A DNA stretch of 38,118 bases, from NCBI GenBank assembly GCA_021825385.1, contig JAKAHU010000002.1, positions 1 to 38,118 on the forward strand, read 5' to 3'. This DNA comes from Chloroflexota bacterium. GTDB lineage: Bacteria; Chloroflexota; Limnocylindria; Limnocylindrales; CSP1-4. The notes beneath the pieces were generated by a model that saw only the letters and a list, made by a program, of their open reading frames with translations, searched no databases and was not told where the DNA came from. Position numbers and translations under genes: made by a program. Below, one piece after another: positions 25,382-38,118 of the stretch; within the stretch, counting starts at the first letter, position 1; each line of letters begins with the position of its first letter.

Positions 25382-25627
25382 TCAGCCGCCGAGCGCGCGC
25401 TTGGCCTGCTCGAGCTCGTCGGCGCTGATCTCACCGCGGGCGAACCGACGGCGGAAGATCTCGATCGGATCATCCGTCGAACGGCCTCTCGGTCGAATCG
25501 CGAGCACGATCCCGACGATGACGAGGGCGGCGACTGCCGCCACGAGCAGAAGACCGAGCCAGCCGCCGGTCATCCAACCGCCCCCGAACACACCGTCTAC
25601 TCCATAGCACGAGCCGGAGCCCATCAT
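25382..25627 (-). CDS. SHOCT-domain single-pass membrane protein
   Basis: From the MM at 25627 behind AAGGAGG: MMGSGSCYGVDGVFGGGWMTGGWLGLLLVAAVAALVIVGIVLAI...FARGEISADELEQAKRALGG, with a SHOCT-type C-terminus. Confidence 0.7.
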   Translation of the reverse strand: MMGSGSCYGVDGVFGGGWMTGGWLGLLLVAAVAALVIVGIVLAIRPRGRSTDDPIEIFRRRFARGEISADELEQAKRALGG

Positions 25628-25864
25628 TCGCGCACCTCCTTGATGGTCGGATCGTGCCGACCATACGCCAGCCGACGTTTCAGCAGCCAGTGAAGGAGGG
25701 CCTGCCAGCCCGTACAGCCCGGCCTCAGGGGCACCAACGAGGGTTGGGACAGGTAGCGCGTCGGTCCCGGCTTCGGTCATGTCTCGTGGTCCTCGCTGGC
25801 TGAGCGTGGGCAGCGCGGTGGCGGCACCCGCGTCGGGTCTGCTATTGTTTCATGAATTGCTGAA

Positions 25865-26422
25865 ATGAGGACGAATCCGCGCATGCCCGAGCCTCCGCGT
25901 GACCTGCGTACCCGGGTGGTCGAACCGATCCGCGCCGTCCAGCTCGTCGCCGGGATCTTCGTGGTTGGCATTGTCGTGATCGGCGACACGCTCGCCGACA
26001 CCGCCATCCGCGGGGCGGCTGAGCCGTCGATCGCCGTCGTCGGCGACTTGCTGCGGCTCACGCCGTCGGCGAACGAGGGGATTGCGTTCGGCCTCCTGAG
26101 TGATGTTGGCCCGGCGGTCGTCATCCTCCTCACGGGGCTCGCGCTCGCCGTCGCACTCGCCTCTGTTCGGCGGGTCCGCGGGTTCCTGTTCCGAGCGGCG
26201 ATCTGGCTCCTGCTCGGGGGCGGCCTGGCGAACCTGATCGAGCGAGTCGCCCATGGCCGTGTCCTCGACTACGTGGATCTCGGACTGGGGAACGCACGAT
26301 GGCCGACGTTCAACGTCGCCGATGTCGCCGTCAGCCTCGCGGTCGTCGCTGCGACCGCGGGCATCGCGGTGGAGCGACTGCGGCGCACCGTCGGCGGCGC
26401 GTCGGGCACGGGGCGGCCGTGA
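25865..26422 (+). CDS. lspA: Lipoprotein signal peptidase (signal peptidase II)
   Basis: Motifs NEGIAFGLL, GGGLANLIERV..GRVLDY and FNVADVAVSL with 4 TM segments. The start may be 25883, behind GAGGA. Confidence 0.8.
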   Translation: MRTNPRMPEPPRDLRTRVVEPIRAVQLVAGIFVVGIVVIGDTLADTAIRGAAEPSIAVVGDLLRLTPSANEGIAFGLLSDVGPAVVILLTGLALAVALASVRRVRGFLFRAAIWLLLGGGLANLIERVAHGRVLDYVDLGLGNARWPTFNVADVAVSLAVVAATAGIAVERLRRTVGGASGTGRP

Positions 26423-26844
26423 CGGACGGGCGGCCCCCCGACGATGGTCGGCCGGTCGGCGGCTGGGCCAACGCTGGCCACCTGGGCCCGACGGCCGGCG
26501 TCGCCCTGGGCCAGGACGCAGCCGAACGGCTCGCGGCCGCGTTCGGCCTGCTCGCGGATCCGACCCGGCTGCGGATCATACACGCGCTGGCGTGCTCGTC
26601 CGAGGTCCGCGTCGAGGAACTCGTTCGGCTCATTGGGCTCGAGCAGTCCACCGTTAGCCGGCAGCTCCGGATCCTCCGCGACCGGGCGTTCGTTGGACGC
26701 CGGCGCGAGGGTCGACTGACTTACTACCGGCTGGCCGATGGGTCGCTGCGACGCGTGCTGTGCGGGTCACGCGACGTCGCAGGCGACCTCGCCTCCTTCC
26801 TCGCCGAAGGCACCGGGGCACGACGCGAGCCCACCGAGGGATGA
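26419..26844 (+). CDS. ArsR-family regulator (sensor site unclear)
   Basis: The GTG at 26419 overlaps the lspA stop (GTGA). LLADPTRLRIIHALACSSEVRVEELVRLIGLEQSTVSRQLRILRD...YYRLADGS has no CVC and no DxH. Confidence 0.75.
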   Translation: MTDGRPPDDGRPVGGWANAGHLGPTAGVALGQDAAERLAAAFGLLADPTRLRIIHALACSSEVRVEELVRLIGLEQSTVSRQLRILRDRAFVGRRREGRLTYYRLADGSLRRVLCGSRDVAGDLASFLAEGTGARREPTEG

Positions 26845-27002
26845 CCGCCAGCCGCGGCGCCGGCCGTCGACCGCGCTCGAGATCCCGCGCGCGGCGAGAT
26901 CGCGTCGAGGAGTTCGAGCCAGCGAAGCGGATTCTGGGCGATGACCGCCTCGAGGGCCGTCCAAACTCCACCTACGGACCGGCCCGCACATCCAGGAGGC
27001 AC

Positions 27003-27298
27003 ATGGTGATCGAAACAAGCTACACGTTTGGCTCCGGATCGATGGCGAGATCGCCGACCTGCGACCACGAGTCGAGGCTGCGCTGCGCGACGAGGGCTTC
27101 GGGGTGCTCACTGAGATCGACGTCGCAGCGGTCTTGAAGGCGCGGCTCAGCGTCGAGCGTCCGCCCTACCTCATCCTGGGCGCCTGCAACCCGACGCTCG
27201 ACCACGCAGCGCTCGACATCGAGCCGTCGGTCGGCGCGCTCCTTCCGTGCAACGTCGGCCTCCGCGAGGACGAGCCAGGGGAGACGACGGTCGAGATC
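27003..27298 (+). pseudogene. DUF302-domain gene remnant (1-nt frameshift near 27031, C-terminal roughly one quarter missing)
   Basis: The ATG at 27003 behind AGGAGG gives MVIETSYTFG. In the next frame it continues RIDGEIADLRPRVEAALRDEGFGVLTEIDVAAVLKARLSVERPPYLILGACNPTLDHAALDIEPSVGALLPCNVGLREDEPGETTVEI, a typical CNP-type DUF302. Confidence 0.6.
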
Positions 27299-27370
27299 CG
27301 CCCGCCGTGGGCAGGGTGCGTGTGGTTGCGTGTCGGTTCACGATACTATGAAATGACAGGAGGTAACGAA

Positions 27371-29344
27371 TTGAGCCAGAAGGACCGCCCTGTCGCGGGG
27401 GACGAGCGCGACGACCGCGAGGACGACGAGCGGGAGGGGGCACATTCGGGTCCGTGGTGGACATATCGGCCGATCCTCGGCGCGGTCGGGTCGGGTCTCC
27501 TGCTGGCGGCCGGCTGGCTCGGATCGATCACCGGGGCCCTGCCGGACCCGCTGCCGATCGCGTTCTACCTCGCCTCGATCCCGTTCGGCGGCTACTGGTG
27601 GGCACGCGAGGGCCTGGAAGAGCTGATCCACGATCGCGTGGTTGGCATCGAGGTTCTGATGGGTGTCGCCACGATCGGGGCGGCCGCGCTCGGTGCGTGG
27701 GAGGAGGCCGCGTTCCTCGTCTTCCTGTACGGCTCGGCCGAAGCCGTCGAGTCACTCACGTTCGCCCGGACTCGCTCCGCGATCCGCGCCCTGCTCGACC
27801 TCGCCCCGAAGGAGGCGCACGTCCTGCGCGACGGTGCCGAGCTGACGATCCCGGCGACCGAGCTCGTGCCGGGTGACCTGTTCCTCGTCCGCCCCGGTGA
27901 GGGCCTCGCGACCGACGGCGTCATCCGGGCCGGGCGCTCGAGCCTCGACGAGTCGCCGATCACCGGCGAGAGCGTGCCGGTCGACAAAGGACCGGGGGAC
28001 CTCGTCTTCGCCGGCACGATCAACCGCCAGGGAGCGCTGACGATCGAGGCGACGAAGTCGTTCGCCGACAACACCCTCTCGGCGATCATCCACCTGGTCG
28101 AGGAGGCGCAGGGCCAGAAGGGCCGCGCCCAGCGGTTCATCGACCGCTTCAGTCGCATCTACAGCCCGCTTGTGCTCGTCGGCGCGGCGGCTCTGGCCGT
28201 CGTCCTCGTCGCCTTCGGCGACGATCCGACCGAGGCGATCACCCGGGCGATCACGGTCGTCGTGGCCGGAGCACCATGCGCCCTCGTCATGTCGACACCG
28301 GTGGCGATGGCCGCCGGGATCGGCTCGGCCGGGCGGCGCGGCGTCCTGATCAAGGGCGGGATCCACCTCGAGAACCTGGGCACCGTCCGGGTCGTCGCGC
28401 TCGACAAGACCGGCACGCTCACCCACGGCCGGCCAGTCGTGACCGACGTCGTCCCACTCGACGGCACCGACGAGCGGGACCTGCTCGCGGCCGCCGCCGG
28501 CGTCGAGCGCTATTCCGAGCATCCGCTGGCGCGGGCGATCGTGGCCGCCGCGGCCGAGCGCGGCGTCCTCCCGTCCCAGGCCACCGACTTCTCGGCACTC
28601 GCCGGAGCCGGTGCCACAGCGCGCCTCGACGGCCGGCGCGTCCACGTCGGCAGCCCGGAGCTGTTCGCCGAGCTCGGTGCGACAGCGTCGGCCGCGAGCG
28701 CGGGCCTCCTCGAGAAGATGCGCGAGGAGGGCAAGACCGTCGTCCTCGTCGGCGAGCGTCCGGTCGACACGACGGCCAGCGTGCGCATCCTCGGCCTGCT
28801 CGGGATCCGTGACCAGGTCCGTCCCAACGCCGCTGCGGCGATCCGCGAGCTCCACCGCCTTGGCATCCGCCGGGTCGTGATGCTGAGCGGCGACCACCCG
28901 CGGACGGCCCGGGCGATCGCTCGGGAACTCGGGATCGACGACGTCAGAGCGGGCCTCACGCCCGAGGACAAGGTCGCCGCGATCCGCGAGCTCGAACGCG
29001 CCCACGGTGCGGTGGCGATGATCGGAGACGGGGTGAACGATGCACCGGCGCTCGCCGCAGCGACCGTCGGGATCGCGATGGGGACCGCCGGCTCCGACGC
29101 CGCGATCGAGGCGGCCGACGTCGCGCTCATGGCCGACGATCTCGAAAAGACCGGCGATGCCCTCCGGATCGGACGGAAGGCGCGCCTCGTGTCGCGCCAG
29201 AACCTGGCCTTCTCGCTGGCCATTCTGCCCGTCCTCATCCTGGGCGCCGCGGGCGGCCTGTTCACGATCGCCCTCGTGGTCACCGTCCACGAGGCGGCCG
29301 AGCTGCTGGCGGTCGCCAACGGCCTGCGGGCGGCGCGGGCCTGA
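27371..29344 (+). CDS. P1B-type heavy-metal-translocating ATPase, paralogue of 21217-23157 (no HMA domain, APC motif)
   Basis: ITGES, DKTGTLT, SEHPLA and GDGVNDAPAL are present, with AGAPCALVMSTP and VHEAAELLAV. The TTG at 27371 lies 7 nt after AGGAGG in a locally AT-richer stretch. An in-frame ATG at 27353 is the alternative. The track ORF from 27104 includes the DUF302 remnant. Confidence 0.85.
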   Translation: MSQKDRPVAGDERDDREDDEREGAHSGPWWTYRPILGAVGSGLLLAAGWLGSITGALPDPLPIAFYLASIPFGGYWWAREGLEELIHDRVVGIEVLMGVATIGAAALGAWEEAAFLVFLYGSAEAVESLTFARTRSAIRALLDLAPKEAHVLRDGAELTIPATELVPGDLFLVRPGEGLATDGVIRAGRSSLDESPITGESVPVDKGPGDLVFAGTINRQGALTIEATKSFADNTLSAIIHLVEEAQGQKGRAQRFIDRFSRIYSPLVLVGAAALAVVLVAFGDDPTEAITRAITVVVAGAPCALVMSTPVAMAAGIGSAGRRGVLIKGGIHLENLGTVRVVALDKTGTLTHGRPVVTDVVPLDGTDERDLLAAAAGVERYSEHPLARAIVAAAAERGVLPSQATDFSALAGAGATARLDGRRVHVGSPELFAELGATASAASAGLLEKMREEGKTVVLVGERPVDTTASVRILGLLGIRDQVRPNAAAAIRELHRLGIRRVVMLSGDHPRTARAIARELGIDDVRAGLTPEDKVAAIRELERAHGAVAMIGDGVNDAPALAAATVGIAMGTAGSDAAIEAADVALMADDLEKTGDALRIGRKARLVSRQNLAFSLAILPVLILGAAGGLFTIALVVTVHEAAELLAVANGLRAARA

Positions 29345-29531
29345 GCACGCGCACCCATGGCGGGGCGGGAACGCCGAGCGGCAGGCCAACGTTTCCTACC
29401 GGTCCGCGCGGTCCGCCCGGGGGACGAATCGCCCACGCCATCGAGCGCCCGGCGGCCTGATCCTGGTGGGCGTCGGTCTGTGCTTCGTCTGGATCGCCCG
29501 AGCGAGGTCCTGCCCGGTCACAGGGGCCGGC

Positions 29532-29571
29532 ACTGACGCCCCGCCGGCGTGATCGACGGCGAGGCGTCAGT
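29532..29571. terminator. Hairpin between convergent ATPase and mmsA genes (weak terminator candidate)
   Basis: ACTGACGCC ... GGCGTCAGT forms a 9-bp stem with a 22-nt partly self-complementary loop. Confidence 0.3.
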
Positions 29572-29594
29572 CGGTTGGGTGAGCGCCTGCTCGA

Positions 29595-31142
29595 CTACCG
29601 GTTGCCCGGGAAGACCAGGCTCAGGGTCTCCCGCCGGCTGGGATCCGGCCAGCGCTCGGTGACCATCTTCTGCTGGCTGAAGAAGCGCACGCCGTCCTCG
29701 CCGCGCATGGCGAGGTCGCCGCTGGCCGACTGCTTGGCCCCACCGAAGGAGAGATACCCGGCCGGGACCGGGATCGGCACGTTGACCCCGATCATCGGGA
29801 CCTGGACCTCGAGCTTGAACCGCCGAGCGGCGCCGCCGTCGGTCGTGAAGATCGCGGTGCCGTTGGCGTACTTGTGGCCGTTGATGAGGCTGATCGCCTC
29901 CTCGTACGTGGCGACCCGGACGATGCCCAGGACCGGGCCGAAGATCTCCTCCTGGTAGATCTCCATCTCGGGGGTGACGTGGTCGAACAGCGTGACGCCA
30001 AGGAAGAACCCGTTCGGGTTCGTCGGGTGGACGAACGGCCGACCGTCGACGACCAGCTCAGCACCCTCGGCGACGCCCTTGTCGATCCAGCGAATGATCG
30101 ACTCCCGGTGCTCGCGGCTGTAGATCGGGCCCATGTCGACCCCGGGCTCCATGCCCGGGCCGACCTTGAGCCTGGCGATCCGCTCGAGGATCAGCGGCCG
30201 CAGCCGCTCTGCCGCGTTGCCGACCGCGATCACGAGCGTTTGGGCCATGCACCGCTCACCGGCCGATCCGTAGCCTGACGCGACCGCCGCGTCGGCGGTC
30301 AGCTCCATGTCGGCGTCGGGCAGCACGAGCATCGCGTTCTTGGCACTCGTGAACGAGGCTACCCGCTTGCCGCGCTTGGTGCCCTCCTCGAACACGTGGC
30401 GCCCGACCGCGGTGCTGCCGACGAACTGGATCGCGGCGATATCGGGGTGCTCGACGATCGCGGCGACGGCCTCGCGGCCGCCGTACACGATGTTGAACGT
30501 CCCGTCCGGCCCGCCGGCCTTGGTCCACAGCTCCGCCTGGAGCTGGGTGGCACCCGGGGTGTGCGAGCTGGGCTTGAGGATGAACGTGTTGCCGCACATG
30601 AGCGCGATCGGATAGATCCACATCGGGACCATGGCCGGGAAGTTGAAGGGCGTGATCGCGGCGGTCACGCCGAGCGGTACGCGGAGCGTGAACGCATCGA
30701 CGTTCGTGGCGACGTTCGGTGTGTTCAGGCCGGCCAGCTGGGTCGGCAGGCCGCAGGCGAACTCGATCGTCTCGAGGCCGCGGAGGACCGAGCCAAGCGC
30801 GTCGGGAAACGTCTTGCCGTGGTCGCGGGTGATCAGCTCGGCCATCTCGTTGCGGTGCTGCCAGACGAGCTCACGGAAGGCGAAGAAGATCTCGCTCCGA
30901 GCGATCAGGGGTGTGTCGCGCCAGCCGGGAAATGCGGCCTTCGCCGCGGCGACCGCGCGAGCGACCTCGTCCGCGCCGCCGCGGGGCACGCGAGCGACGA
31001 CCTCGCCGGTGGCGGGGTTCCAGACCGGCCCGGTGTTCTCGGGCAGCACCTCGACCGGCCGGCCGTCGATCCAGTGGGACAGGATGGGTGGGGTCGCGCC
31101 CTCTGCTTCCGCCTCGGGGCGGCCGGTGACCGTGTCGACCAT
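29595..31142 (-). CDS. mmsA: Methylmalonate-semialdehyde dehydrogenase (CoA-acylating)
   Basis: It has the ALDH fold with catalytic GERCMA. The MmsA-type C-terminus is VNVPIPVPAGYLSFGGAKQSASGDLAMRGEDGVRFFSQQKMVTERW. Start at Met10 behind GGAGAGGAGG. Confidence 0.85.
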   Translation of the reverse strand: MVDTVTGRPEAEAEGATPPILSHWIDGRPVEVLPENTGPVWNPATGEVVARVPRGGADEVARAVAAAKAAFPGWRDTPLIARSEIFFAFRELVWQHRNEMAELITRDHGKTFPDALGSVLRGLETIEFACGLPTQLAGLNTPNVATNVDAFTLRVPLGVTAAITPFNFPAMVPMWIYPIALMCGNTFILKPSSHTPGATQLQAELWTKAGGPDGTFNIVYGGREAVAAIVEHPDIAAIQFVGSTAVGRHVFEEGTKRGKRVASFTSAKNAMLVLPDADMELTADAAVASGYGSAGERCMAQTLVIAVGNAAERLRPLILERIARLKVGPGMEPGVDMGPIYSREHRESIIRWIDKGVAEGAELVVDGRPFVHPTNPNGFFLGVTLFDHVTPEMEIYQEEIFGPVLGIVRVATYEEAISLINGHKYANGTAIFTTDGGAARRFKLEVQVPMIGVNVPIPVPAGYLSFGGAKQSASGDLAMRGEDGVRFFSQQKMVTERWPDPSRRETLSLVFPGNR

Positions 31143-31488
31143 GACTCGGGCCTCCTCTCCTGGACGCATGTACTAGGTTAGCGTGCTTCCCGGGCGGCCT
31201 GCCAGAGCGTTCCGCGGTGGGCGGCGAGGGTGATCGACCGGGCGAACGCGATCCTGCGACCGCCGATCGTGACGGTCACCGTGAGGGCGGGTGACACCCT
31301 GAACGATGTCGTCGCCGCGCGGGGGCTGACGCTGGCGAATAGACCGCGGCGTCAACCGAGCTCACGCCTGTGACGGTGAGACGATCCCCGCCGGCTGGGG
31401 TCTGAGCGTGCCCTGGACGCCGCCACGCCATGCCCTGCCGATGTTCGACCGTGGGCGCCTTCGTCCGTACCAGCGGCTCCCGGCGCTG

Positions 31489-31971
31489 TTACTCCTGAAC
31501 CGTCTCGGCAGCCGTGGACCCGACGCTTCGGCGCTCGCCACCGCCGTCCGAGAATGCTTCGTCCGAGAATGCTTTGGGTACGGATGCAGACGCGCGGACC
31601 GGACGAAGAGCCCGTCGCGACGGTGGGCCGTAGTTGCGGCAGGCCTCGATGGTCGGTGTGACCAAGTCGAGAAGCTCGGCGCTCGCCTCGAGGAGCCGTG
31701 AGACGGCCGGGTCGGCGAGTCGATAGCGGTTGAACCGACCCTCGGATGCGACGGTCACGAGTCCACACTCGAGCAGGCAGCGCAGATGGTTCGAAGCGTT
31801 CGAGGCGCTCAGGCCGAGCGTCCGGGCGAGCTCGCCCGCGCTTCGCGGCGCGGTACGGAGCTCGAGGAGGATCCCCAGCCGGGCCGGGTCAGCCAGCCCG
31901 CGAAAGAGCTTGGTCTCGACGGAGAGCGCGCCGGTCTCCCTCGGCAACGCGGCGGCGAGCGTTCGTTTCAC
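31489..31971 (-). CDS. ArsR-family metalloregulator, CmtR-like, paralogue of 24938-25351
   Basis: The GTG at 31971 sits behind AGAGGA. GLADPARLGILLEL...ASNHLRCLLECGLV...IEACRNYGPPSRR. The tail contains an in-frame 15-nt tandem duplication at 31546-31575 (KAFSD/EAFSD). Confidence 0.75.
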   Translation of the reverse strand: MKRTLAAALPRETGALSVETKLFRGLADPARLGILLELRTAPRSAGELARTLGLSASNASNHLRCLLECGLVTVASEGRFNRYRLADPAVSRLLEASAELLDLVTPTIEACRNYGPPSRRALRPVRASASVPKAFSDEAFSDGGGERRSVGSTAAETVQE

Positions 31972-32387
31972 GATCCTCTGAATCCTAGTCCTTGGCGACC
32001 GGTCCGGCAGCGAGTCGGGGGGCCGGTCGGGACGAGCCGGGTCCCGCCGGGATTCGAGGACCTGTCCGTATCGCTGCTCATGACCGACGGGCCAGGAGCG
32101 GTGGGTTGCGCTCGGTCCCCATGGATCGCGGGCATCGATCGCGGGCGGGCACATCACGGCCGCGGGGCGATGCCGGGCACGCCCGCGCGGCAACGGCGAG
32201 GCAGCGCCGCTCTGACTGCGCGAGCTCGGGTCCACCGCCGGTTCGCTGGCGCACGTCGCTGCTGCCGCAACAACATGAACCCGTGGTACACAGCACACCC
32301 CGGACCGACGAAGATGCGAGATGCTGCGCGCTCGGGCCAGGGGATGCCCTGGCCTCAGCGTCCTTTCGAGCATGGGTGGGCCAAGAC

Positions 32388-33629
32388 GTGGATGTGACCG
32401 GACCAGACCTGGCACCTGGCCGCTGGCGGCTGCTCGTCCTGTTGGGCCTGGGCGAGCTGCTCGCGATGTCGCCATGGTTCAGCGCCTCGGCGGTCGCGCC
32501 CCTGCTCACGGAGCAGCTGTCCCTGACCGGCCTGGACCTGCCGATGCTGACGATCGCCGTGCAGCTCGGCTTCGTGGTCGGAGCATTGCTGCTCGCGGCC
32601 ACCGGGGCCGCCGACGTCCTGCCCGCAGGCGGCCTGTTCCTGGCCGGTGCCCTGGCCGCCGCGGCTGCGAACCTCGGCTTCGCCTACTCTGCGGACAGCC
32701 TCGGCGAGGCTGCCGTCTTCCGCTTCGTGACGGGGTTCGCGCTCGCGGGCGTGTATCCCGTGGGCATGAAGATCGTCACCGGCTGGTTCCGGCAGGAGCG
32801 GGGCCTCGCGATCGGGATGCTCGTGGGCGCCCTGACGGTCGGCGCGTCGCTCCCCTACCTGTTCCGGGCCCTCGGCGCCCTGTCGGGTCTCGACTGGCGG
32901 GCGGTCGTCGCGAGCGCAAGCGCCGCCGGGGTGCTCGGTGGCCTGCTGGTCGGCGGCTGGGTGGGCCGTGGCCCGTTCGACGTCGCGGCCCCTCGTTTCA
33001 GTCTCGCGGTGGCGCGACACGCCTTCGCCGAGCCCTCGGTCCGGCTGGCCAACCTCGGCTACCTGGGCCACATGTGGGAGCTCTACGCGATGTGGACGTG
33101 GATCCCGCTCTTCTTCGCGGCCAGCTTCGCGGCGGCCGGCGTGACCGATGTGGCGGCGGCCAGTCTGGCCGCCTTCCTCGTCGTGGCCGCCGGGGGGATC
33201 GGCTGCGCCGGAGCGGGTCTCCTGGCCGACCGCGTCGGTCGGACGACGCTGACGATCGGGGCCATGGCGGTCAGTGGCTCGACCGCGGTGGTCATCGGGT
33301 TTCTGTTCGGGGCCCCACCGGCCCTCACCCTGATCGTCGGGTTGGTCTGGGGCGTCAGTGTCGTCGCCGACTCCGCTCAGTTCTCGGCGGCGGTGACGGA
33401 GCTCGGGCCGCCGGGCACGGCCGGATCAGCCCTCGCCCTTCAGACGGCCTCCGGGTTCCTGCTCACCGGGATCACGATCACCCTGGTCGGTCTGCTGAGC
33501 GCCCCGGATGCCCTCGGCTGGCGGGTCGTGTTCGCGCTGCTGGCCGCCGGGCCCCTGGTCGGGATCGCGGCCATGTGGAGGCTCCGCGGCCGACCCGAAG
33601 CCGTGCGCATGGCGAACGGCCGGCGCTGA
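32388..33629 (+). CDS. MFS transporter
   Basis: About 12 TM segments from VDVTGPDLAPGRWRLLVLLGLGELLAMSPWF.... The upstream 130 codons of the track ORF are Arg/Gly-rich and look non-coding. It is divergent from the CmtR-like gene. Confidence 0.75.
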   Translation: MDVTGPDLAPGRWRLLVLLGLGELLAMSPWFSASAVAPLLTEQLSLTGLDLPMLTIAVQLGFVVGALLLAATGAADVLPAGGLFLAGALAAAAANLGFAYSADSLGEAAVFRFVTGFALAGVYPVGMKIVTGWFRQERGLAIGMLVGALTVGASLPYLFRALGALSGLDWRAVVASASAAGVLGGLLVGGWVGRGPFDVAAPRFSLAVARHAFAEPSVRLANLGYLGHMWELYAMWTWIPLFFAASFAAAGVTDVAAASLAAFLVVAAGGIGCAGAGLLADRVGRTTLTIGAMAVSGSTAVVIGFLFGAPPALTLIVGLVWGVSVVADSAQFSAAVTELGPPGTAGSALALQTASGFLLTGITITLVGLLSAPDALGWRVVFALLAAGPLVGIAAMWRLRGRPEAVRMANGRR

Positions 33630-33720
33630 GACTCGGTCAGGGCCGGACGCGATCTGGCTTGCATCGCCCGGCATGGAGCGGATCGATCGTCCGCGACGAC
33701 CGCGCTGCCCCTGGCCGACG

Positions 33721-34267
33721 CTAACGCTCGGATTCGATCAGTTCCTTGATCCGGCGGAGACTGTTCTCGACCGGCATCGGGTCGAGCGGGTTCGGCGCCC
33801 CGGGGATATCGACACTGATCGTGAACCTGCTGCTGCTCTCGCCCTCGGGCTCGATCGACTGGCGGCCGCGCATCTCGACCGGGCCGTCGTGGATCAGGAA
33901 CCCGATCGCGCGGGGCGGATCGAACTCGATGCACTCCATCGTGCCATCGATCGGGTACCCGGCGCGGGTGTGACGCCGCCGCACGACGGTTCCCACCCCG
34001 AGCGGCCCGGGCGTGATGAGTGGTGGCCGACGCCGAGCTTTGAGTCCACGATCGGGGCCCGAGGGAGCAGAGGCCATCCCGGTGGGTCTGGCGAGCGCCC
34101 TTCGCATCCAAGCCGGCCGCACCCTCGCGCTCGGCGAACGCCCGCACCTGGTCGGCCGGGCCGTAGCCGGGACCAGATGATCTCCTCGTCGGGATCGGCG
34201 AACGTGCGGATGCGCCAGGAACAGGCGCTCCGGTCGGTCTTGGGCGCTCTCGGGTGACCCACTTCAT
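33721..34267 (-). pseudogene. SRPBCC-like gene, C-terminal half intact, N-terminal half apparently frameshifted
   Basis: The C-terminal frame reads GPLGVGTVVRRRHTRAGYPIDGTMECIEFDPPRAIGFLIHDGPVEMRGRQSIEPEGESSSRFTISVD...LRRIKELIESER. A coupled ATG at 34267-34265 (MKWVT...) overlaps the CDF stop by 1 nt but is in a different frame. Confidence 0.4.
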
Positions 34268-35406
34268 CACGCCGGTCCTCGATGCGCGACTTCGCTCGAA
34301 GCGTGCCCCGCCAACGAGTCGTGGTGCCGGGTGAGCTCATGGGCATCCAGACCCGAGTGGCCGCACGGGTTCACATGGATGACCGCGGTGTCGAGCCGGC
34401 GGACCTCGTGGAGCAGGCGGTGCCTGACCTCCTCTGACACTCGATGGCCCTCGCTGACGGTCATGTCGCAGTCGACGGTGATCGCCATCGAGGCCTCGAG
34501 GGTGTGCCCGAGCCAGCGGACACGAAGTCGGTCAACCGACTGGACCTCGGGCACCGACGTCGCGATCGTCTCGACCTGCTCGACCAGCTCGGGCTCGACC
34601 GCATCCATCAGCCGCCCGAGCATCTGGCCGGTCGCCTGCTTGAGCACGACCAGGATGACCGCGGTGATGAGCAACCCGACGAGCGGGTCGGCGAGCGGGT
34701 AGCCCGCGGCGACGCCGAGCGCACCGGCGACGACCGCAAGCGAGGTCAGCCCATCGGTCCGGGCGTGGTAGCCGTCGGCGACCAGGGCGGCCGATCCGAT
34801 CGAGCGGCCGACCCCGATGCGGTAGAGCGCGACGAGCTCGTTGCCGGCGAAACCGATCAGTCCAGCGGCGATGACGATCGGGATGTTCGTGATCGGCTCA
34901 GGGTCGATCAAGCGGCTGATCGACTCGTAGGCGGCGAGGATCGCCGAGCCCGCGATCATCAGCAGGACGAACAGCCCCGCCAGGTCCTCCGCCCGCCGGT
35001 AGCCGAACGTGTAGCGCCGGGTCGCGGCGCGACTGCCGATCGCGAACGCGATCCAGAGCGGGATCGCGGTCAGGGCGTCGCTGACGTTGTGGATCGTGTC
35101 GGCCAGGAGCGCGACCGAGCCCGAGACGACGACGACCGCAAGCTGGGCGACCGCCGTGATCGCCAGCAGCACGAGCGAGACCTTGAGCGCGCGGATGCCG
35201 CGCCGGTCGTTCGTGAGCGCGTCGTCAATCGAGTCGCCCGGATCGTGACTGTGACCGATGAACAGCTCAGCCAGTCGTCGCAGCCGCCCCTCCGGGTGGT
35301 CGTGAGGATGGTCATGGCCGTGAGCGTGGCCGGCGCCGTGGTGATCGTCGTGGTCGTGCGACTCGCCCTGTTCATGAGCACCGGGCGAGTGCGGATGCTC
35401 GGTCAT
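34267..35406 (-). CDS. Cation diffusion facilitator with His-rich N-terminus (FieF/MamB-like branch)
   Basis: From Met36 of the track ORF: MTEHPHSPGAHEQGESHDHDDHHGAGHAHGHDHPHDHPEG.... Also SVALLADTIHNVSDA, FGYRRAEDL and ADGYHARTD. Confidence 0.85.
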   Translation of the reverse strand: MTEHPHSPGAHEQGESHDHDDHHGAGHAHGHDHPHDHPEGRLRRLAELFIGHSHDPGDSIDDALTNDRRGIRALKVSLVLLAITAVAQLAVVVVSGSVALLADTIHNVSDALTAIPLWIAFAIGSRAATRRYTFGYRRAEDLAGLFVLLMIAGSAILAAYESISRLIDPEPITNIPIVIAAGLIGFAGNELVALYRIGVGRSIGSAALVADGYHARTDGLTSLAVVAGALGVAAGYPLADPLVGLLITAVILVVLKQATGQMLGRLMDAVEPELVEQVETIATSVPEVQSVDRLRVRWLGHTLEASMAITVDCDMTVSEGHRVSEEVRHRLLHEVRRLDTAVIHVNPCGHSGLDAHELTRHHDSLAGHASSEVAHRGPA

Positions 35407-35558
35407 CTGGCCTCGTGCGCGTTGCGCCCGCCTTGTCAGCTTGGGGAAGCATTGTAGGTCCGTCGAGGTGGCCACTCGCCCCGCGGCCCCCGAACACGGG
35501 CTGACCATCACTGAACGGCTCGCGGAGCCGCTGGAGCCGCTCGACTGGTTCGCAGCGC

Positions 35559-35874
35559 ATGACGCGACGGTCGTCTCGTCCCGCCGAACGCGTCACCGAC
35601 CGCGAGGCCGGCGTGGTCGCGGCGGCTCTGGCGGCTGGGCCGGAGAAGGCGGCGGCCCACCGACTCGGCCTGTCGCACTCGGCAGTCCAGCACCACCTGG
35701 CGACTGCAAGGTCGAGGGTGGGCGCGACGACCACAGCTCGTGTGGATCCTCGTGCCGCGGCTGCCCAAGCCCGAGAGCACCGCCCCGGACGACCACTCGC
35801 CTCGACGGGACCTGAACACACCGGCCCCGGCCGAAGGGCGGTCGGATGCGCGGCCTCCCGGGTTGTGCCTATGA
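35559..35874 (+). pseudogene. Small LuxR/GerE-type HTH regulator, copy 1; frame break (+1) near 35730-35736 (pseudogene or recoded)
   Basis: MTRRSSRPAERVTDREAGVVAAALAAGPEKAAAHRLGLSHSAVQHHLATARSRVGATT is followed, in the +1 frame from 35734, by QLVWILVPRLP.... That frame ends at TGA 35872-35874, overlapping the next ATG. Confidence 0.5.
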
Positions 35875-36638
35875 TCCGCGCTGTGACCACTGCCTCGTTC
35901 ATCTCCCTGCACCTGGCGCGGTTCAATCAGCTCCGTCCAGCCGGGCCGGCGGATCCCGGCGGGCGACCTGGGCTGCTGTTCTGCGAGGTGGGCGCCGACT
36001 GTCGCGCGGCGGGCACGGACCCGGCCTCGCGGGAGGCGTTTTCGTTCCTCGTCGTGGGGCTCCACGACAGCAAGGAGTCAGCGGACCGCCTGGTCGACGA
36101 TGTCGCCACCGTCGCCCCGTGGTTCGCGGACGCGGCGGAGCGCTGGAGCGGCGTCCTCGCGCCGTTTCGAACGACGGGCGAATCCAACCTCATCCACCCC
36201 ATGGCGCCAGCCCGCCTGTTCGATCCGCTCGTCTCCGCGCCCAGGCGCGGGACGCCGGTGGTCGTGTTCACCACCGCCGGCTGGAACCGGGCCGGCCTCG
36301 ACATGGCACGGGTGCAGGATTTCGGGACCGGCGTAGCCGCGGTCAGGATCTCGATGACGGCTGTCCCGGGCCTCCGGTCGCAGCAGACGTTCTTCTTTCC
36401 CGGGATCATCGCCCTCGACCCGCCGACCCTGACCTTCTGGGACGACGAGGTGTCGCTCGTCTCGTGGGCGCATCGCCAGGCGACACACAAGCGCCAGATG
36501 GACCGCTACCGGGCGACCCGGAACGCCGACCGAGCCTCCTTCACACGCCTCACCCCGCTCAGCAGCATCGGGACGTGGTACGGCCGGGACCCGGTCGCCA
36601 CGGCGGGGGCCGGCGGGCCGGCCGATCCGGGCTCGTAA
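35871..36638 (+). CDS. Hypothetical protein; resembles CrtA/spheroidene-monooxygenase-like proteins (from memory, unverified)
   Basis: MIRAVTTASFISLHLARFNQ...FLVVGLHDSKESA...PVVVFTTAGWNRAGL...TLTFWDDEVSLVSWAH...ASFTRLTPLSSIGTWYGRDP. The codon usage looks real. The track ORF 35559..36638 fuses it in frame to the LuxR-like copy 1. Confidence 0.55.
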   Translation: MIRAVTTASFISLHLARFNQLRPAGPADPGGRPGLLFCEVGADCRAAGTDPASREAFSFLVVGLHDSKESADRLVDDVATVAPWFADAAERWSGVLAPFRTTGESNLIHPMAPARLFDPLVSAPRRGTPVVVFTTAGWNRAGLDMARVQDFGTGVAAVRISMTAVPGLRSQQTFFFPGIIALDPPTLTFWDDEVSLVSWAHRQATHKRQMDRYRATRNADRASFTRLTPLSSIGTWYGRDPVATAGAGGPADPGS

Positions 36639-36836
36639 GCGGCTGCCCGCCACCTGGCGCACTCGACGGTGAAGCGCCGCCTGGCGAATGTGCGGTCCAA
36701 CGTTGGCGCGACGATGGCGGCGCAGCTCGGGTGGATCCTCACCCACGCTTACCGGAGCCCGAGGCTGGAGCCGAGGCGGATGACCAGGCGAGCAAGCGCG
36801 CCGACTCCCGTCTGCCATTGCCCGGCAGGTGACTGA
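36639..36836 (+). pseudogene. Remnant of a LuxR-type HTH gene, copy 3 (no start codon; follows a TAA in frame)
   Basis: AAARHLAHSTVKRRLANVRSNVGATMAAQLGWILTHAY... is homologous to copies 1 and 2. It begins immediately after the stop at 36636-36638. Confidence 0.4.
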
Positions 36837-37020
36837 ACTGCCGCCGTTAGCGATCGGGCCCTAGCCACGGAATGGCCGGTGACTCTGGGTGAGGTCGAGA
36901 CCCTGGTTGATCGCCGTCACTCGGGCGTGTGCACGCCGGAACATTGCCTGTCGAACGGCTCCGACGACAGGGCCCCGGCGACGGTGAGCGAGCCTCCCAT
37001 GCTTCTGAGGCCCCCGTCGG

Positions 37021-37063
37021 GGCCGTGAAGCATCGGGGCCCGTGAAGCATCGGGGCCGTGAAG
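37021..37063. repeat. Imperfect tandem repeat: GGCCGTGAAGCATCGG (16 nt), GGCCCGTGAAGCATCGG (17 nt), GGCCGTGAAG (partial)
   Basis: Read directly from the sequence. Confidence 0.85.
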
Positions 37064-37168
37064 ACCGCGCTCGTCCGCGGTGTACCCGGGCGGCAGATGC
37101 CGAAGCCAGGAGCCATCCGTGCCGTTCCCATGCGGCACGTGGGGTGGAGACAATTGATCGCGGAGCGG

Positions 37169-37360
37169 CTACTGAAGCCAGGCGCTGAAGCCCTGGTGCA
37201 TCCCGGGGTTGTGGTCGCCGCTGAACATGCCTGCGCGAGCGCACTCGGAGACATGCGCGCCGAAATTGGCGCCCGTTCCGGCGGCCGCCACCGGCGACAC
37301 GAGCAGCAGACTTGCGAGCACGGCGGACGCGGCGACGATGATGCGGAACACACGGACCAT
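37169..37360 (-). CDS. Small secreted protein (63 aa precursor) with a Cys/His/Met-containing mature part
   Basis: The ATG at 37360 sits behind GGGAGAG. MVRVFRIIVAASAVLASLLLVSPVAAA|GTGANFGAHVSECARAGMFSGDHNPGMHQGFSAWLQ has a clear signal peptide. Confidence 0.55.
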   Translation of the reverse strand: MVRVFRIIVAASAVLASLLLVSPVAAAGTGANFGAHVSECARAGMFSGDHNPGMHQGFSAWLQ

Positions 37361-37667
37361 GGCTGCTCTCCCTTGGGGTACCCGGCGGGCTCTCCGCCGC
37401 AACTCCATCTGTATCGCTCCTCTTGCTGAGAGGAAGATGAGCGCAGGATGAGAGTGGTGGGGATGTCGCCAACGCTGAGCAGGCTCATCTCGCTCGCACT
37501 GGAGGCACTCCCGCGCTACGAGGCGGGCGCGACGGCCGGGCCGCTCGGCCTACTCGACGCGAGAGGGTGGCTGGTCGGGGCGAGAGGATTTGCCCCGCGA
37601 CCACCGACCTTCCGATCACGATGCGCCTGGCCGAGCCTCCCGAGCCTTGCGAGTGGCTACGGAGCGC

Positions 37668-37929
37668 ATGACGAGACCGACGTGCCGCCCAGCCCAGCGT
37701 GCCACCGAGCGTGAGGCGGTGGTCGTTGCCGCCGTCTTGACGGCCGGCTCCGAAAAGGCAGCCGCCCACCGCCTCGGCCTCTCGCACTCGACCGTGAAGC
37801 ACCACCTGGCGAACGCCCGGCCCAAGGCAGGGGCCGACGACGACGGCGCAGCTCGTGTGGATACTGGCGGAGCGGCTGCCCGAAGCCGAGGGCACAGTCC
37901 GGACAAACGACGAGCGATTTGCTCGGTGA
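37668..37929 (+). pseudogene. Small LuxR/GerE-type HTH regulator, copy 2; frame break (+1) near 37833-37837 (pseudogene or recoded)
   Basis: MTRPTCRPAQRATEREAVVVAAVLTAGSEKAAAHRLGLSHSTVKHHLANARPKAGA is followed, in the +1 frame from 37837, by TTTAQLVWILAERLPEAEGTVRTNDERFAR, with a stop at 37927-37929. The uninterrupted frame instead runs as Arg/Gly/Ser-rich sequence to 38042. Confidence 0.5.
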
Positions 37930-38041
37930 GGTCGCGGGGCGAGCTCGGCGGCAACGGCGGCCCAGGAGTTCCGCGATCGGCGACGAGTTCTGCGGCGTCC
38001 GGCGGTCGGGTCATTGAACCAGTCGCCAGGGAGGATTTCTG

Positions 38042-38118
38042 ATGCGCAGCGTGACCTACTCGATGGGCGTCTCGCTCGATGGCTACACCGTCGGGCCGGA
38101 TGGCCACTTCGACTGGAC
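38042..38118 (+). CDS. RibD C-terminal domain / dihydrofolate-reductase-like family protein (5' end only)
   Basis: MRSVTYSMGVSLDGYTVGPDGHFDW is the characteristic N-terminus of this family. A GGGAGGA RBS precedes it. Confidence 0.7.
   Translation, partial: MRSVTYSMGVSLDGYTVGPDGHFDW

What the first reader, a model, noticed from the sequence alone, without database searches (positions are those of the whole stretch)
35559..37929. Paralogous LuxR-type HTH genes share a +1 reading-frame discontinuity at the same point, with both halves apparently under selection
Copies 1 (ATG 35559) and 2 (ATG 37668) encode ...REA(G/V)VVAA(A/V)L(A/T)AG(P/S)EKAAAHRLGLSHS(A/T)V(Q/K)HHLA(T/N)AR. The next conserved helix, QLVWIL(V/A)(P/E)RLP, lies in the +1 frame (from 35734 and 37837). 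Between GA and QL there are 7 nt (copy 1) or 13 nt (copy 2), where the single-frame remnant copy 3 has 12 (GATMAAQLGWIL). The copies are only about 70% identical by eye. Even so, their differences are mostly synonymous in the HTH frame upstream (gcg/gca, gcg/gcc, cga/cgc, ctg/ctc, gtc/gtg, gca/gcc, agg/cgg). They are also synonymous in the +1 frame downstream (atc/ata and ctc/ctg within W-I-L). The copy 1 +1 frame ends at TGA 35872-35874, overlapping the next ATG (ATGA coupling). The options are independent or inherited frameshifts in a slippage-prone gacgacgacggc context, a systematic sequence error, or conserved +1 recoding.
Basis: partly seen in the sequence, partly recalled or inferred. 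Interest (0 to 1): 0.65.

Follow-up and report, generated by a model that had tools for sequence, protein, structure and literature searches.

The report
Two independently frameshifted LuxR regulator pseudogenes
Two neighbouring copies of a small LuxR-type regulator gene really are broken just before their last helix, but by two different mutations in a multi-copy gene family that often decays, so they are ordinary pseudogenes and not a conserved recoding signal.

Summary
In copy 1 (ATG 35559) and copy 2 (ATG 37668) helices 1-3 of a LuxR/GerE HTH lie in one frame and helix 4 (QLVWIL) in the +1 frame. Contigs from at least five metagenome studies and six assemblies carry the same sequence without indels, so this is not sequencing error.

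The interpretation does not hold.
- About 2,900 database homologues are uninterrupted, mostly ~81 aa, single-frame proteins from Chloroflexota 'Ca. Limnocylindrales' MAGs.
- The two lesions differ. Copy 1 lost 5 nt at 35734/35735. Copy 2 gained one C at 37834/35. They lie about 7 nt apart in gene coordinates.
- Orthologues of copy 1, upstream of the same 255-aa gene in other metagenomes, are in frame at this site but carry other frameshifts elsewhere.
- Copy 1 also has a second 2-nt deletion, a lost leader uORF start and five changes at residues at least 95% conserved.
- No slippery site is shared. The zero frame has no stop or rare codon at either junction.
- The synonymous bias between the copies predates the lesions. 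It is strong only in the N half (31 syn/16 nonsyn) and absent in the C half (3/6). Strain-level SNPs in both copies are 8 of 9 nonsynonymous.

In passing: the family has a conserved leader uORF and polar arrays of full copy, cargo gene and 5'-truncated remnant.

The parts
35463..35558 (+). Degenerate leader of copy 1. It is homologous to the family's conserved ~96-nt leader, but the uORF ATG is lost (ACG ATG CGC -> ACT GAA CGG) and a 1-nt deletion puts the uORF frame out of register with the TGA.
   Evidence: Alignment of 63 family loci, uORF survey, pairwise alignment with copy 2.
35559..35734 (+). Copy 1, N-terminal part in frame 0: M...HHLATARSRVGATT, helices 1-3 of the LuxR/GerE HTH. It has 5 substitutions at columns at least 95% conserved in the family (A12V, V23A, S28P, T42A, K44Q).
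35734..35735 (+). Copy 1 lesion 1: a 5-nt deletion (GACCAC[GGCGC]AGCTC relative to intact relatives), net +1 phase.
   Evidence: nhmmer indel catalogue; alignment with L089, L095, L096 and L090.
35734..35815 (+). Copy 1 C-terminal part: helix 4 QLVWILVPRLPKPESTAPDDHSP in the +1 frame. A second lesion (2-nt deletion at 35801/35802) follows, then the ancestral ending ..DGT* with TGA 35813-35815 in the +2 frame.
35871..36638 (+). Intact 255-aa cargo gene with no Pfam hit and a weak CrtA-like NCBIfam hit. It is under purifying selection. Its stop codon lies inside the copy 3 remnant.
36636..36783 (+). Copy 3: a 5'-truncated remnant covering gene nt ~88-242, with a 6-nt deletion and a 1-nt deletion (gene nt ~201).
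37572..37671 (+). Intact leader of copy 2: TGGTCGGGGCGAGAGGATTTGCCCCGCGACCACCGACCTTCCGATCACG plus the uORF at 37621-37671 (MRLAEPPEPCEWLRSA*). The uORF's TGA overlaps the LuxR ATG.
   Evidence: Contigs of other loci join at 37571/37572.
37668..37835 (+). Copy 2, N-terminal part in frame 0: M...HHLANARPKAGA, helices 1-3.
37834..37835 (+). Copy 2 lesion: one extra C (GGGGC[C]GACGACGACGGCG). It is present in both strain alleles.
37837..37929 (+). Copy 2 C-terminal part in the +1 frame: TTTAQLVWILAERLPEAEGTVRTNDERFAR*, containing helix 4.

Best explanation
Copies 1 and 2 are paralogues of a small (~81 aa) LuxR/GerE-type 'solo' regulator. The gene is present in many copies in genomes of Chloroflexota 'Ca. 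Limnocylindrales'. Each window copy was inactivated by its own indel in the G+C-rich tract GGGGCG(ACG)3GCGCAG that links the recognition helix to helix 4: a 5-nt deletion in copy 1 and a 1-nt insertion in copy 2. By chance both indels move helix 4 (TAQLVWIL) into the +1 frame.

Translation from either ATG would give helices 1-3 followed by out-of-frame sequence. In GerE/NarL-type domains helix 4 packs against the HTH and forms the dimer contact (established knowledge of the family). The products are therefore most likely non-functional, and the genes are pseudogenes.

Copy 1 is the older wreck. It has a second indel, a lost leader uORF and altered recognition-helix residues, and its orthologues are broken in other ways. 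Copy 2 is a recent lesion in an otherwise canonical gene.

The synonymous-biased differences between the copies are inherited from their long divergence as functional paralogues.

Shown: the reality of the lesions, their different nature, the intact family, decay of the orthologues, and the lack of a shared shift motif. Inferred: loss of function, and the absence of translation across the break.
For: - Family normally in one frame. There are 2,872 homologues; all 120 listed cover at least 59% of the spliced query and most are 81-82 aa. The consensus reads ...RSKVGATTTAQLVWILAPRLPEPEG. The genome collection holds 498 stretches, mostly Limnocylindrales/Chloroflexia MAGs, with several per MAG.
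- Different lesions. Copy 1 has a 5-nt deletion at gene nt 174; copy 2 has a 1-nt insertion at nt 167.
- Orthologues of copy 1, next to orthologues of the 255-aa gene:
  - L089 has a 1-nt deletion near codon 21.
  - L095 has a 1-nt deletion near codon 13 plus tail shifts.
  - L096 has an in-frame HTH and a shifted tail.
  - All three are in frame at the window's break.
- Decay is common in the family. In the flanks of 80 intact copies there are frameshifts at gene nt 17-233, plus 29 5'-truncated remnants.
- Copy 1 has 5 deviations at columns at least 95% conserved. Only 4 of 71 intact copies have 4 or more. It also lacks the uORF start.
- Recent polymorphism in the two copies is 8 of 9 nonsynonymous. 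The neighbouring 255-aa gene shows 16 synonymous and 6 nonsynonymous.
- The AlphaFold2 model of an intact member has helices at 14-26, 29-36, 40-54 and 59-66 with pLDDT near or above 90. It matches GerE, NarL, VraR and TraR DNA-binding domains (sequence level). The lesions at codons 56-58 therefore remove exactly helix 4.
- The sequence is not an error.
Against: - Two lesions in the same net phase about 7 nt apart are somewhat unlikely by chance. My rough estimate is ~5%, based on the spread of lesions seen in the family.
- Copy 2 is otherwise pristine: intact leader and uORF, and only 1-2 deviations at conserved residues. Its extra C sits in A_GGG_GCC, where a tRNA-Gly could in principle re-pair in the +1 frame.
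- The extra C has persisted in populations from several sites and in two alleles that differ by 4 SNPs around it.
- No expression or proteomic data are available. The only metatranscriptomes found contain nothing from this region.
- No orthologue of copy 2 beyond strain level was found, so its lesion cannot be dated.
Confidence: 0.85

Rival explanations
1. Conserved, programmed +1 ribosomal frameshifting (recoding). Ribosomes would shift at the junction to make a full four-helix regulator, with the shift acting as a regulatory device shared by the paralogues.
For: Both copies need the same net +1 shift within a few codons of each other. Copy 2 has GGG_G with an SD-like AGGGG just upstream. The +1 frame is open across both junctions.
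Against: - The family is uninterrupted in thousands of homologues.
- Orthologues of copy 1 lack the break and carry other breaks.
- The two junctions share no motif. Copy 1 has no codon where a P-site tRNA could re-pair in +1 (ACC_A, ACG_A, GCG_A).
- There is no zero-frame stop at the site. The next zero-frame codon in copy 2, GCC, is the most used Ala codon (68 per 1000).
- Recent SNPs are mostly nonsynonymous.
- Antonov et al. (PMC3711429) identify recoding by conserved position and direction plus specific motifs near the frameshift. Neither criterion is met here.
Confidence: 0.04
2. Sequencing or assembly error. The genes would be intact in the organism and the indels would be artefacts.
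For: G+C-rich repeats and a G4C2 run are contexts where some platforms miscall.
Against: Identical junctions with no gaps appear in contigs from five studies, at depths up to ~780x, and in six separate ENA/NCBI assemblies. Two natural alleles of the copy 2 junction both keep the extra C.
Confidence: 0.01
3. One ancestral frameshift inherited by both copies through duplication of an already broken gene, followed by an in-frame 6-nt change.
For: The spacings of 7 and 13 nt differ by 6, a multiple of three.
Against: Copy 1 reads GGC GCG ACG ACC (G A T T) in frame 0, so it does not contain the extra C that shifts copy 2 directly after GA. Orthologues of copy 1 (L089, L095, L096) have the full in-frame 12-nt spacer, so the 5-nt deletion arose in the window's lineage. 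The N halves differ at 66% of synonymous sites, so the duplication is ancient relative to the lesions.
Confidence: 0.03
4. The frame-0 products are themselves functional. Either they are truncated three-helix proteins, or, for copy 1, a fusion of the HTH N-part to the downstream 255-aa protein (ORF 35559-36638, 359 aa). Alternatively, copy 2 is partly rescued by low-level spontaneous +1 slippage at GGG_G (a 'savior' shift).
For: The frame-0 ORF of copy 1 runs uninterrupted into the 255-aa gene. The frame-0 ORF of copy 2 ends at a TGA overlapping the next gene's ATG (38040-38044). The copy 2 lesion has persisted in several populations.
Against: Long open off-frames are expected at 71% G+C. The fusion is absent in the orthologues, which keep a stop (DGT*) between the genes. 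Gene callers placed the 255-aa start at the conserved MIRA.... The out-of-frame tails show no family hits. SNPs are mostly nonsynonymous.
Confidence: 0.06

Closest known systems
Frameshifted pseudogenes in multi-copy bacterial gene families (the 'pseudogene clusters' of genome-wide frameshift surveys, e.g. Antonov et al. 2013, PMC3711429)
   Same: The indels disrupt a gene whose relatives are intact. The position of the break is not conserved among orthologues. There is no shift-prone motif. Further lesions accumulate.
   Different: Two neighbouring paralogues happen to be broken within about 7 nt of each other and in the same net phase. One of them (copy 2) is otherwise undecayed.
prfB (release factor 2) programmed +1 frameshifting
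   Same: A +1 shift would be required. Copy 2 has an SD-like AGGGG a few nucleotides before the junction.
   Different: prfB has a conserved CUU_UGA_C shift site with an in-frame stop and a precisely spaced SD, conserved across bacteria (my own knowledge). Here there is no stop, no re-pairing codon in copy 1, no conservation, and the same G-rich codons (K-V-G-A) occur in intact family members.
GerE / NarL-C / FixJ-C / EL222 LuxR-type four-helix HTH domains
   Same: Intact family members match Pfam GerE and PDB sequences EL222, FixJ and GerE. The AlphaFold2 model superposes on GerE 1fse with TM 0.76 and rmsd 1.4 A.
   Different: These are stand-alone ~81-aa proteins with no receiver or ligand domain. 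They are preceded by a conserved 16-codon uORF and are highly multi-copy. The two window copies lack an in-frame helix 4.
Displaced 3' gene remnants beside genomic islands, and orphan modules behind rhs/cdi loci
   Same: The family shows polar arrays of full gene, cargo and 5'-truncated remnant on the same strand.
   Different: The remnant edges lie at many positions, so there is no single att core. Cargo is only 0.3-2 kb, without integrases; one locus has a serine recombinase. The mechanism is untested.

Membership tests
LuxR/GerE-type HTH (Pfam PF00196) | Sequence match to the family model above the curated threshold | tested here: inconclusive
   Spliced copy 2 scores 26.1 bits against a 23.5 cutoff and passes. 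The frame-0 product of copy 2 scores 21.1 and fails. Spliced copy 1 scores 14.6 and fails. Intact homologues carry PF00196.
LuxR/GerE-type HTH (Pfam PF00196) | Four-helix bundle with the HTH in helices 2-3 and a C-terminal fourth helix | tested here: met
   This holds for the intact family. The AlphaFold2 model has helices at 14-26, 29-36, 40-54 and 59-66. Top Foldseek matches include GerE, NarL-DNA, VraR-C, DosR-C and TraR. For the window copies as encoded in one frame, helix 4 is missing.
Programmed +1 ribosomal frameshift (recoding) | Position and direction of the frame change conserved among orthologues/homologues | tested here: not met
   Homologues are uninterrupted. Copy 1 orthologues are in frame at this site and broken elsewhere.
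Programmed +1 ribosomal frameshift (recoding) | Shift-prone codon allowing P-site tRNA re-pairing in +1, with a slow or stop codon in the zero-frame A site | tested here: not met
   Copy 1 has no such codon (GCG_A, ACG_A, ACC_A). Copy 2 has GGG_G, but it is followed by GCC, the commonest Ala codon (68 per 1000). The zero frame stays open for 68 codons or more in both copies.
Programmed +1 ribosomal frameshift (recoding) | Trans-frame protein product detected | not testable with these tools
   There are no proteomic data. The metatranscriptomes found hold no reads of the region.
Pseudogene (unitary frameshift decay) | Disrupting mutation relative to intact close homologues, real in the DNA | tested here: met
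Pseudogene (unitary frameshift decay) | Relaxed constraint after the lesion (further lesions, radical substitutions, neutral polymorphism) | tested here: met
   Copy 1 has a second indel, a lost uORF start and 5 changes at conserved columns. Across the two copies, 8 of 9 SNPs are nonsynonymous. For copy 2 taken alone the evidence is thin: 5 of 6 SNPs are nonsynonymous.
Phase-variable contingency locus | Length polymorphism of a simple repeat switching the frame within populations | tested here: not met
   No indel variants appear at either junction in contigs of eight DNA runs or in six assemblies. The tract is a trinucleotide repeat plus G4, too short for efficient slippage. Contigs can hide rare variants.

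The most novel reading that the evidence does not exclude
The broken copies may be by-products of an undescribed gene-cassette system in 'Ca. Limnocylindrales'. The unit is a ~340-nt module: a sharp-edged conserved leader, a 16-codon proline-rich uORF (MRLAEPPEPFDWLRSA) translationally coupled to the regulator by ATGA, and the 81-aa LuxR solo. This module is repeated many times per genome and flanks small, diverse cargo genes.

5'-truncated remnants of the regulator lie almost always downstream of a full copy (26 against 3). For a given cargo the cargo-to-remnant junction is conserved: for the 255-aa gene it is the same in the window, L014, L090 and L093. This suggests that copies of the regulator act as portable homology arms, or as a recombination target, through which cargo is inserted. 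Each insertion would displace the older 3' end.

A lesser possibility (about 5%) is that copy 2 is kept partly functional by spontaneous +1 slippage at A_GGG_GCC.
Probability: 0.3. Interest if true: 0.55.

Novelty: already known. Interest (0 to 1): 0.18.

Why it matters
For the finding itself, it matters mainly as a caution. A shared frame break between paralogues, with synonymous-biased differences on both sides, looks like recoding. Two independent indels in an old, conserved, multi-copy family produce the same picture, because the selection signature predates the lesions. The decisive test was orthologue comparison, not dN/dS between the paralogues.

The annotation consequence is simple. 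35559-35815 and 37668-37929 should be marked as frameshifted LuxR-family pseudogenes, and 36636-36783 as a gene fragment.

The family context may deserve its own study in a poorly known soil and freshwater lineage. It is an abundant uORF-coupled LuxR solo with polar arrays of cargo genes and gene remnants.

Tried and rejected
- Rfam scan of 35300-38118 at E up to 1 gave no hits.
- RNAalifold on 35 leaders gave only a weak consensus (-4.6 kcal/mol) with almost no covariation. I make no claim of a structured RNA.
- The sigma-70 promoter scan found nothing, and the terminator-like sites were at chance level.
- Metatranscriptomes from the same study (X24-26) hold nothing from 30000-38118, so expression could not be assessed.
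- Dating the copy 2 lesion through the downstream RibD_C gene failed. The next-best homologues are 87-88% identical and widespread, including in Streptomyces. The three loci examined (L064, L098, L099) have no LuxR copy upstream.
- I looked for a recurrent mobile-element partner. The neighbours of 80 family loci are heterogeneous. The largest neighbour cluster has 12 members and is held together partly by read-through of the conserved leader. Only one clear recombinase was found (L041, Resolvase domain).
- A single site-specific att core inside the gene is rejected. Remnant edges are sharp but occur at about 20 different gene positions.
- A literature search for Limnocylindria plus LuxR found no paper.
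- My first frame-pairing screen was biased towards breaks near the N/C boundary. I replaced it with an nhmmer indel catalogue.
Full report
**1. What is in the sequence**

The right end of the window (71% G+C) holds three related stretches on the + strand.

- Copy 1 starts at ATG 35559 and copy 2 at ATG 37668.
- Both encode, in the frame of their ATG, the first three helices of a LuxR/GerE-type helix-turn-helix...REAGVVAAALAAGPEKAAAHRLGLSHSAVQHHLATARSRVGA and ...REAVVVAAVLTAGSEKAAAHRLGLSHSTVKHHLANARPKAGA.
- The next conserved element, (TTTA)QLVWIL(V/A)(P/E)RLP, is in the +1 frame in both.
- Copy 3 (36636-36783) is a 5'-truncated piece that begins directly at the stop codon of the 255-aa gene at 35871-36638.
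- Position-specific G+C changes phase exactly at the two junctions.
- Only conceptually spliced proteins match the GerE model through residue ~63-65. Spliced copy 2 scores 26.1 bits against a cutoff of 23.5, whereas its frame-0 product scores 21.1.

**2. Sequence artefact?**

No. The 2.6-kb stretch is present at 95-99% of sampled words in ten public metagenome runs from three studies, and partly in runs of further studies. The samples are labelled mine drainage, biofilm, sediment, soil, mine tailings or simply 'metagenome'.

Contigs of X1 (~780x), X3 and X9 cover both junctions without any inserted or deleted letter, and contigs of X11 and X12 do so at the copy 2 junction. X11's listed contigs do not cover the copy 1 junction.

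Six ENA/NCBI assemblies that encode the identical 255-aa protein have the same copy 1 junction. They carry one of two alleles of the copy 2 junction, and both alleles have the same length.

**3. What the gene normally looks like**

A search with the spliced copy 2 protein returned 2,872 homologues. Most of the 120 best are 81-82 aa, and all are 72-92% identical to the query. They read ...ANARSKVGA(T/E)TTAQLVWILAPRLPEPEG... in one frame.

In the species-representative genome collection, 498 stretches encode a relative. Nearly all of the 80 retrieved are MAGs labelled Chloroflexia, Chloroflexota or 'Candidatus Limnocylindrales', often with several copies per MAG.

The profile of the family matches the LuxR-type domains of EL222, FixJ and GerE. 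An AlphaFold2 model of an intact member (mean pLDDT 83, near or above 90 over residues 11-70) has helices at 14-26, 29-36, 40-54 and 59-66. It superposes on GerE (TM 0.76, rmsd 1.4 A), NarL-DNA, VraR-C, DosR-C and TraR.

The window's breaks at codons 56-58 therefore cut off exactly helix 4 (TAQLVWIL). From established knowledge of GerE/NarL-type domains, this helix completes the hydrophobic core and forms the dimer contact.

**4. The two breaks are different mutations**

I aligned every copy in hand to a DNA profile of intact genes.

- Copy 1 lacks 5 nt at gene position ~174: GACCAC[GGCGC]AGCTC, between 35734 and 35735.
- Copy 2 has one extra nucleotide at position ~167: GGGGC[C]GACGACGACGGCG, the extra C at 37834/35.
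- Copy 1 still reads Gly-Ala-Thr-Thr in frame 0. Copy 2 is shifted immediately after Gly-Ala.

The breaks are thus neither at the same point nor inherited from one event. They are -5 and +1 changes that happen to have the same net phase.

**5. Orthologues**

Relatives of the 255-aa gene (74-87% protein identity) were found on ten metagenome contigs. Three of them (L089, L095, L096) have, directly upstream, a LuxR copy with the same distinctive tail as window copy 1 (...TAPDxDSPxDGT*). All three have the full in-frame 12-nt spacer at the window's break.

Each is damaged elsewhere:
- L089 has a 1-nt deletion near codon 21.
- L095 has a 1-nt deletion near codon 13, plus an insertion and a deletion in the tail.
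- L096 has an in-frame 3-nt deletion and a 1-nt deletion in the tail.

These orthologues also show that the ancestral stop of copy 1 is TGA 35813-35815. The window misses that stop because of a second lesion, a 2-nt deletion at 35801/35802. The ATGA overlap of the +1 frame with the 255-aa gene is therefore fortuitous. ATGATCCGC is simply the conserved start context of the 255-aa gene.

A fourth contig (L090) has a canonical intact 82-aa LuxR gene upstream of the 255-aa gene. This ortholog group is evidently decaying independently in several lineages, while the cargo gene stays intact (16 synonymous and 6 nonsynonymous differences in a diverged strain).

**6. Other signs of decay**

Intact family members have a strongly conserved ~96-nt leader. 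It contains a 16-codon uORF (MRLAEPPEPFDWLRSA) whose TGA overlaps the regulator's ATG in 54 of 63 copies, plus 6 with GTGA. Copy 2 has this leader intact (37572-37671). Copy 1 has lost the uORF ATG and its register.

Copy 1 differs from the family at five columns that are at least 95% conserved among 71 intact copies: A12V, V23A, S28P, and T42A and K44Q in the recognition helix. Only 4 of the 71 intact copies have four or more such deviations. Copy 2 has two.

In the flanks of the 80 retrieved loci I found frameshifting indels at gene positions 17-233, and many gene fragments. Disrupted copies are thus common in this family. Lesions in the tract 160-190 are only mildly over-represented: roughly a fifth to a quarter of events in about 15% of the length.

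**7. The selection argument**

Nei-Gojobori counts between copy 1 and copy 2 give 31 synonymous and 16 nonsynonymous differences in codons 1-56 (pS 0.66, dN/dS ~0.09). In the 16 conserved codons after the break they give only 3 synonymous and 6 nonsynonymous (dN/dS ~0.7). The claim for the downstream half therefore rests on two codons.

More fundamentally, the copies are ancient paralogues. Their synonymous-biased divergence accumulated while both were intact, so it says nothing about selection after the indels.

The polymorphisms that separate near-identical strains are more recent. In the two copies, 8 of 9 are nonsynonymous: P/S, A/V, T/A, V/A and D/N in copy 2, and A/V, P/S and K/Q in copy 1. 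This fits neutrality (about 70% expected). It does not fit the constraint seen between intact family members, where median pN/pS is about 0.19-0.26.

**8. Recoding signals**

In copy 1 no codon in the open overlap allows a P-site tRNA to re-pair in +1 (GCG_A, ACG_A, ACC_A).

In copy 2, GGG_G would allow it. However, the following zero-frame codon GCC is the most used alanine codon in this window (68 per 1000), and there is no stop. The G-rich K-V-G-A codons are equally present in intact genes. In both copies the zero frame stays open for 68 to more than 300 codons.

A genome-wide survey of prokaryotic frame transitions identified recoding by conserved position and direction plus specific motifs, and found many more pseudogene clusters (4,010) than recoding clusters (146) (PMC3711429). 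This locus fails both criteria. Expression could not be examined.

**9. Conclusion**

Copy 1 is an old pseudogene, and I am confident of this. Copy 2 is most likely a recent pseudogene. Its near-perfect state, and the persistence of the extra C in two alleles that differ by four SNPs within 22 nt around it, leave a small chance of residual function through spontaneous slippage.

The co-occurrence of two lesions of the same phase within about 7 nt is best read as coincidence in a mildly indel-prone tract.

**10. What else is there**

The family itself is more interesting than the breaks. Across 80 loci there are 29 5'-truncated remnants that reach the gene's 3' end. Of these, 26 lie 0.05-2.2 kb downstream of a full copy on the same strand, and only 3 lie upstream, although the flanks were symmetric. 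Some loci have arrays of full copy, cargo, remnant, cargo, remnant.

The remnant edges are sharp but lie at many positions (nt 43-185), with a mode near GTCGGAGAAGGC at ~78. This argues against a single att core.

For one cargo, the 255-aa gene, the cargo-to-remnant junction is conserved in the window, L014, L090 and L093, and the cargo's stop codon lies inside the remnant. This suggests that cargo plus a 3' piece of the regulator moves as a unit.

Cargo is diverse and encoded on either strand. It includes ECF sigma factors, SnoaL-like proteins, dehydrogenases, the CrtA-like 255-aa protein, and a RibD_C protein 85-88% identical to Streptomyces proteins. One locus has a large serine recombinase ending in the leader.

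The mechanism is not established. Homology-guided insertion of cassettes flanked by regulator sequence is my working idea. No Rfam family matches the leader, and its RNA structure is unsupported by covariation. No paper linking Limnocylindria and LuxR was found.

Noticed in passing
window 37572-37671 (copy 2 leader); degenerate counterpart at 35463-35558; 60+ related loci, e.g. L001:4905-5004: The family has a conserved ~96-nt leader with a sharp left edge: TGGTCGGGGCGAGAGGGATAGCCCCGCCACCAACGACCTTCCGATCACG, an imperfect palindrome TGGTCGGGGC-N10-GCCCCGCCACCA. It is followed by a 16-codon proline-rich uORF (MRLAEPPEPFDWLRSA*) whose TGA overlaps the regulator's ATG in 54 of 63 copies. Two other leader classes exist (...LMVNATPREPPVPLELVRSA*, and ...YDMPIEGRDEWLAAARR). 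The uORF start AUGCGC is complementary to the GCGCAU at the regulator start. There is no Rfam hit and no covariation support.
   Followed up: partly
window 35559-36783; loci L003, L014, L023, L029, L041, L047, L057, L062, L065, L066 and others: Polar arrays of full LuxR copy, cargo gene(s) and 5'-truncated LuxR remnant, all on one strand. Of 29 remnants, 26 lie downstream of a full copy. Remnant edges are sharp but at many gene positions. The junction between the 255-aa gene and its remnant is conserved in the window, L014, L090 and L093.
   Followed up: partly
L041:1080-3050: A 656-aa large serine recombinase (Resolvase N-terminal domain) whose reading frame runs into the leader of a LuxR copy. 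It is the only clear recombinase among the neighbours of 80 family loci.
   Followed up: no
window 35559-36638: Because of the two deletions in copy 1, its frame-0 ORF runs without a stop into the 255-aa gene, giving a 359-aa conceptual fusion. Orthologues keep a stop (DGT*) between the two genes, in the same frame as the 255-aa gene.
   Followed up: partly
window 37821-37909: Six of the eight differences between the window and strain X9 over 2.6 kb fall in the 3' part of copy 2. Four lie within 22 nt around the extra C (37821, 37828, 37837, 37842). The alternative allele restores the consensus RSKVG. This could be a conversion tract from a paralogue or local relaxed constraint.
   Followed up: partly
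window 38042-38118 and L082:12172-12735: The RibD_C (dihydrofolate-reductase-like) gene after copy 2 is 85-88% identical in protein sequence to Streptomyces and other distant taxa, with nothing between 88% and 100%. This suggests a horizontally spread cargo gene.
   Followed up: partly
window ~25560-35410 (via L082 annotation): The neighbourhood looks like a metal-handling accessory region: signal peptidase II, an ArsR-type HTH, a P-type ATPase with DUF302, aldehyde dehydrogenase, an MFS transporter, and a His-rich cation-diffusion-facilitator gene divergent from copy 1. This fits the mine-drainage origin of several runs.
   Followed up: no
window ~38100-38300 (right end), seen in L083-L087: Five of the six assemblies shown for this locus end their contig within a few hundred bases of the window's right end, inside the RibD_C gene. 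This suggests a repeat or strain-variable junction there.
   Followed up: no
window 37169-37408 (- strand): A small 79-aa ORF with a signal-peptide-like N-terminus lies between the copy 3 remnant and copy 2. Gene finders called it in all six assemblies. It has no family hit on record.
   Followed up: no
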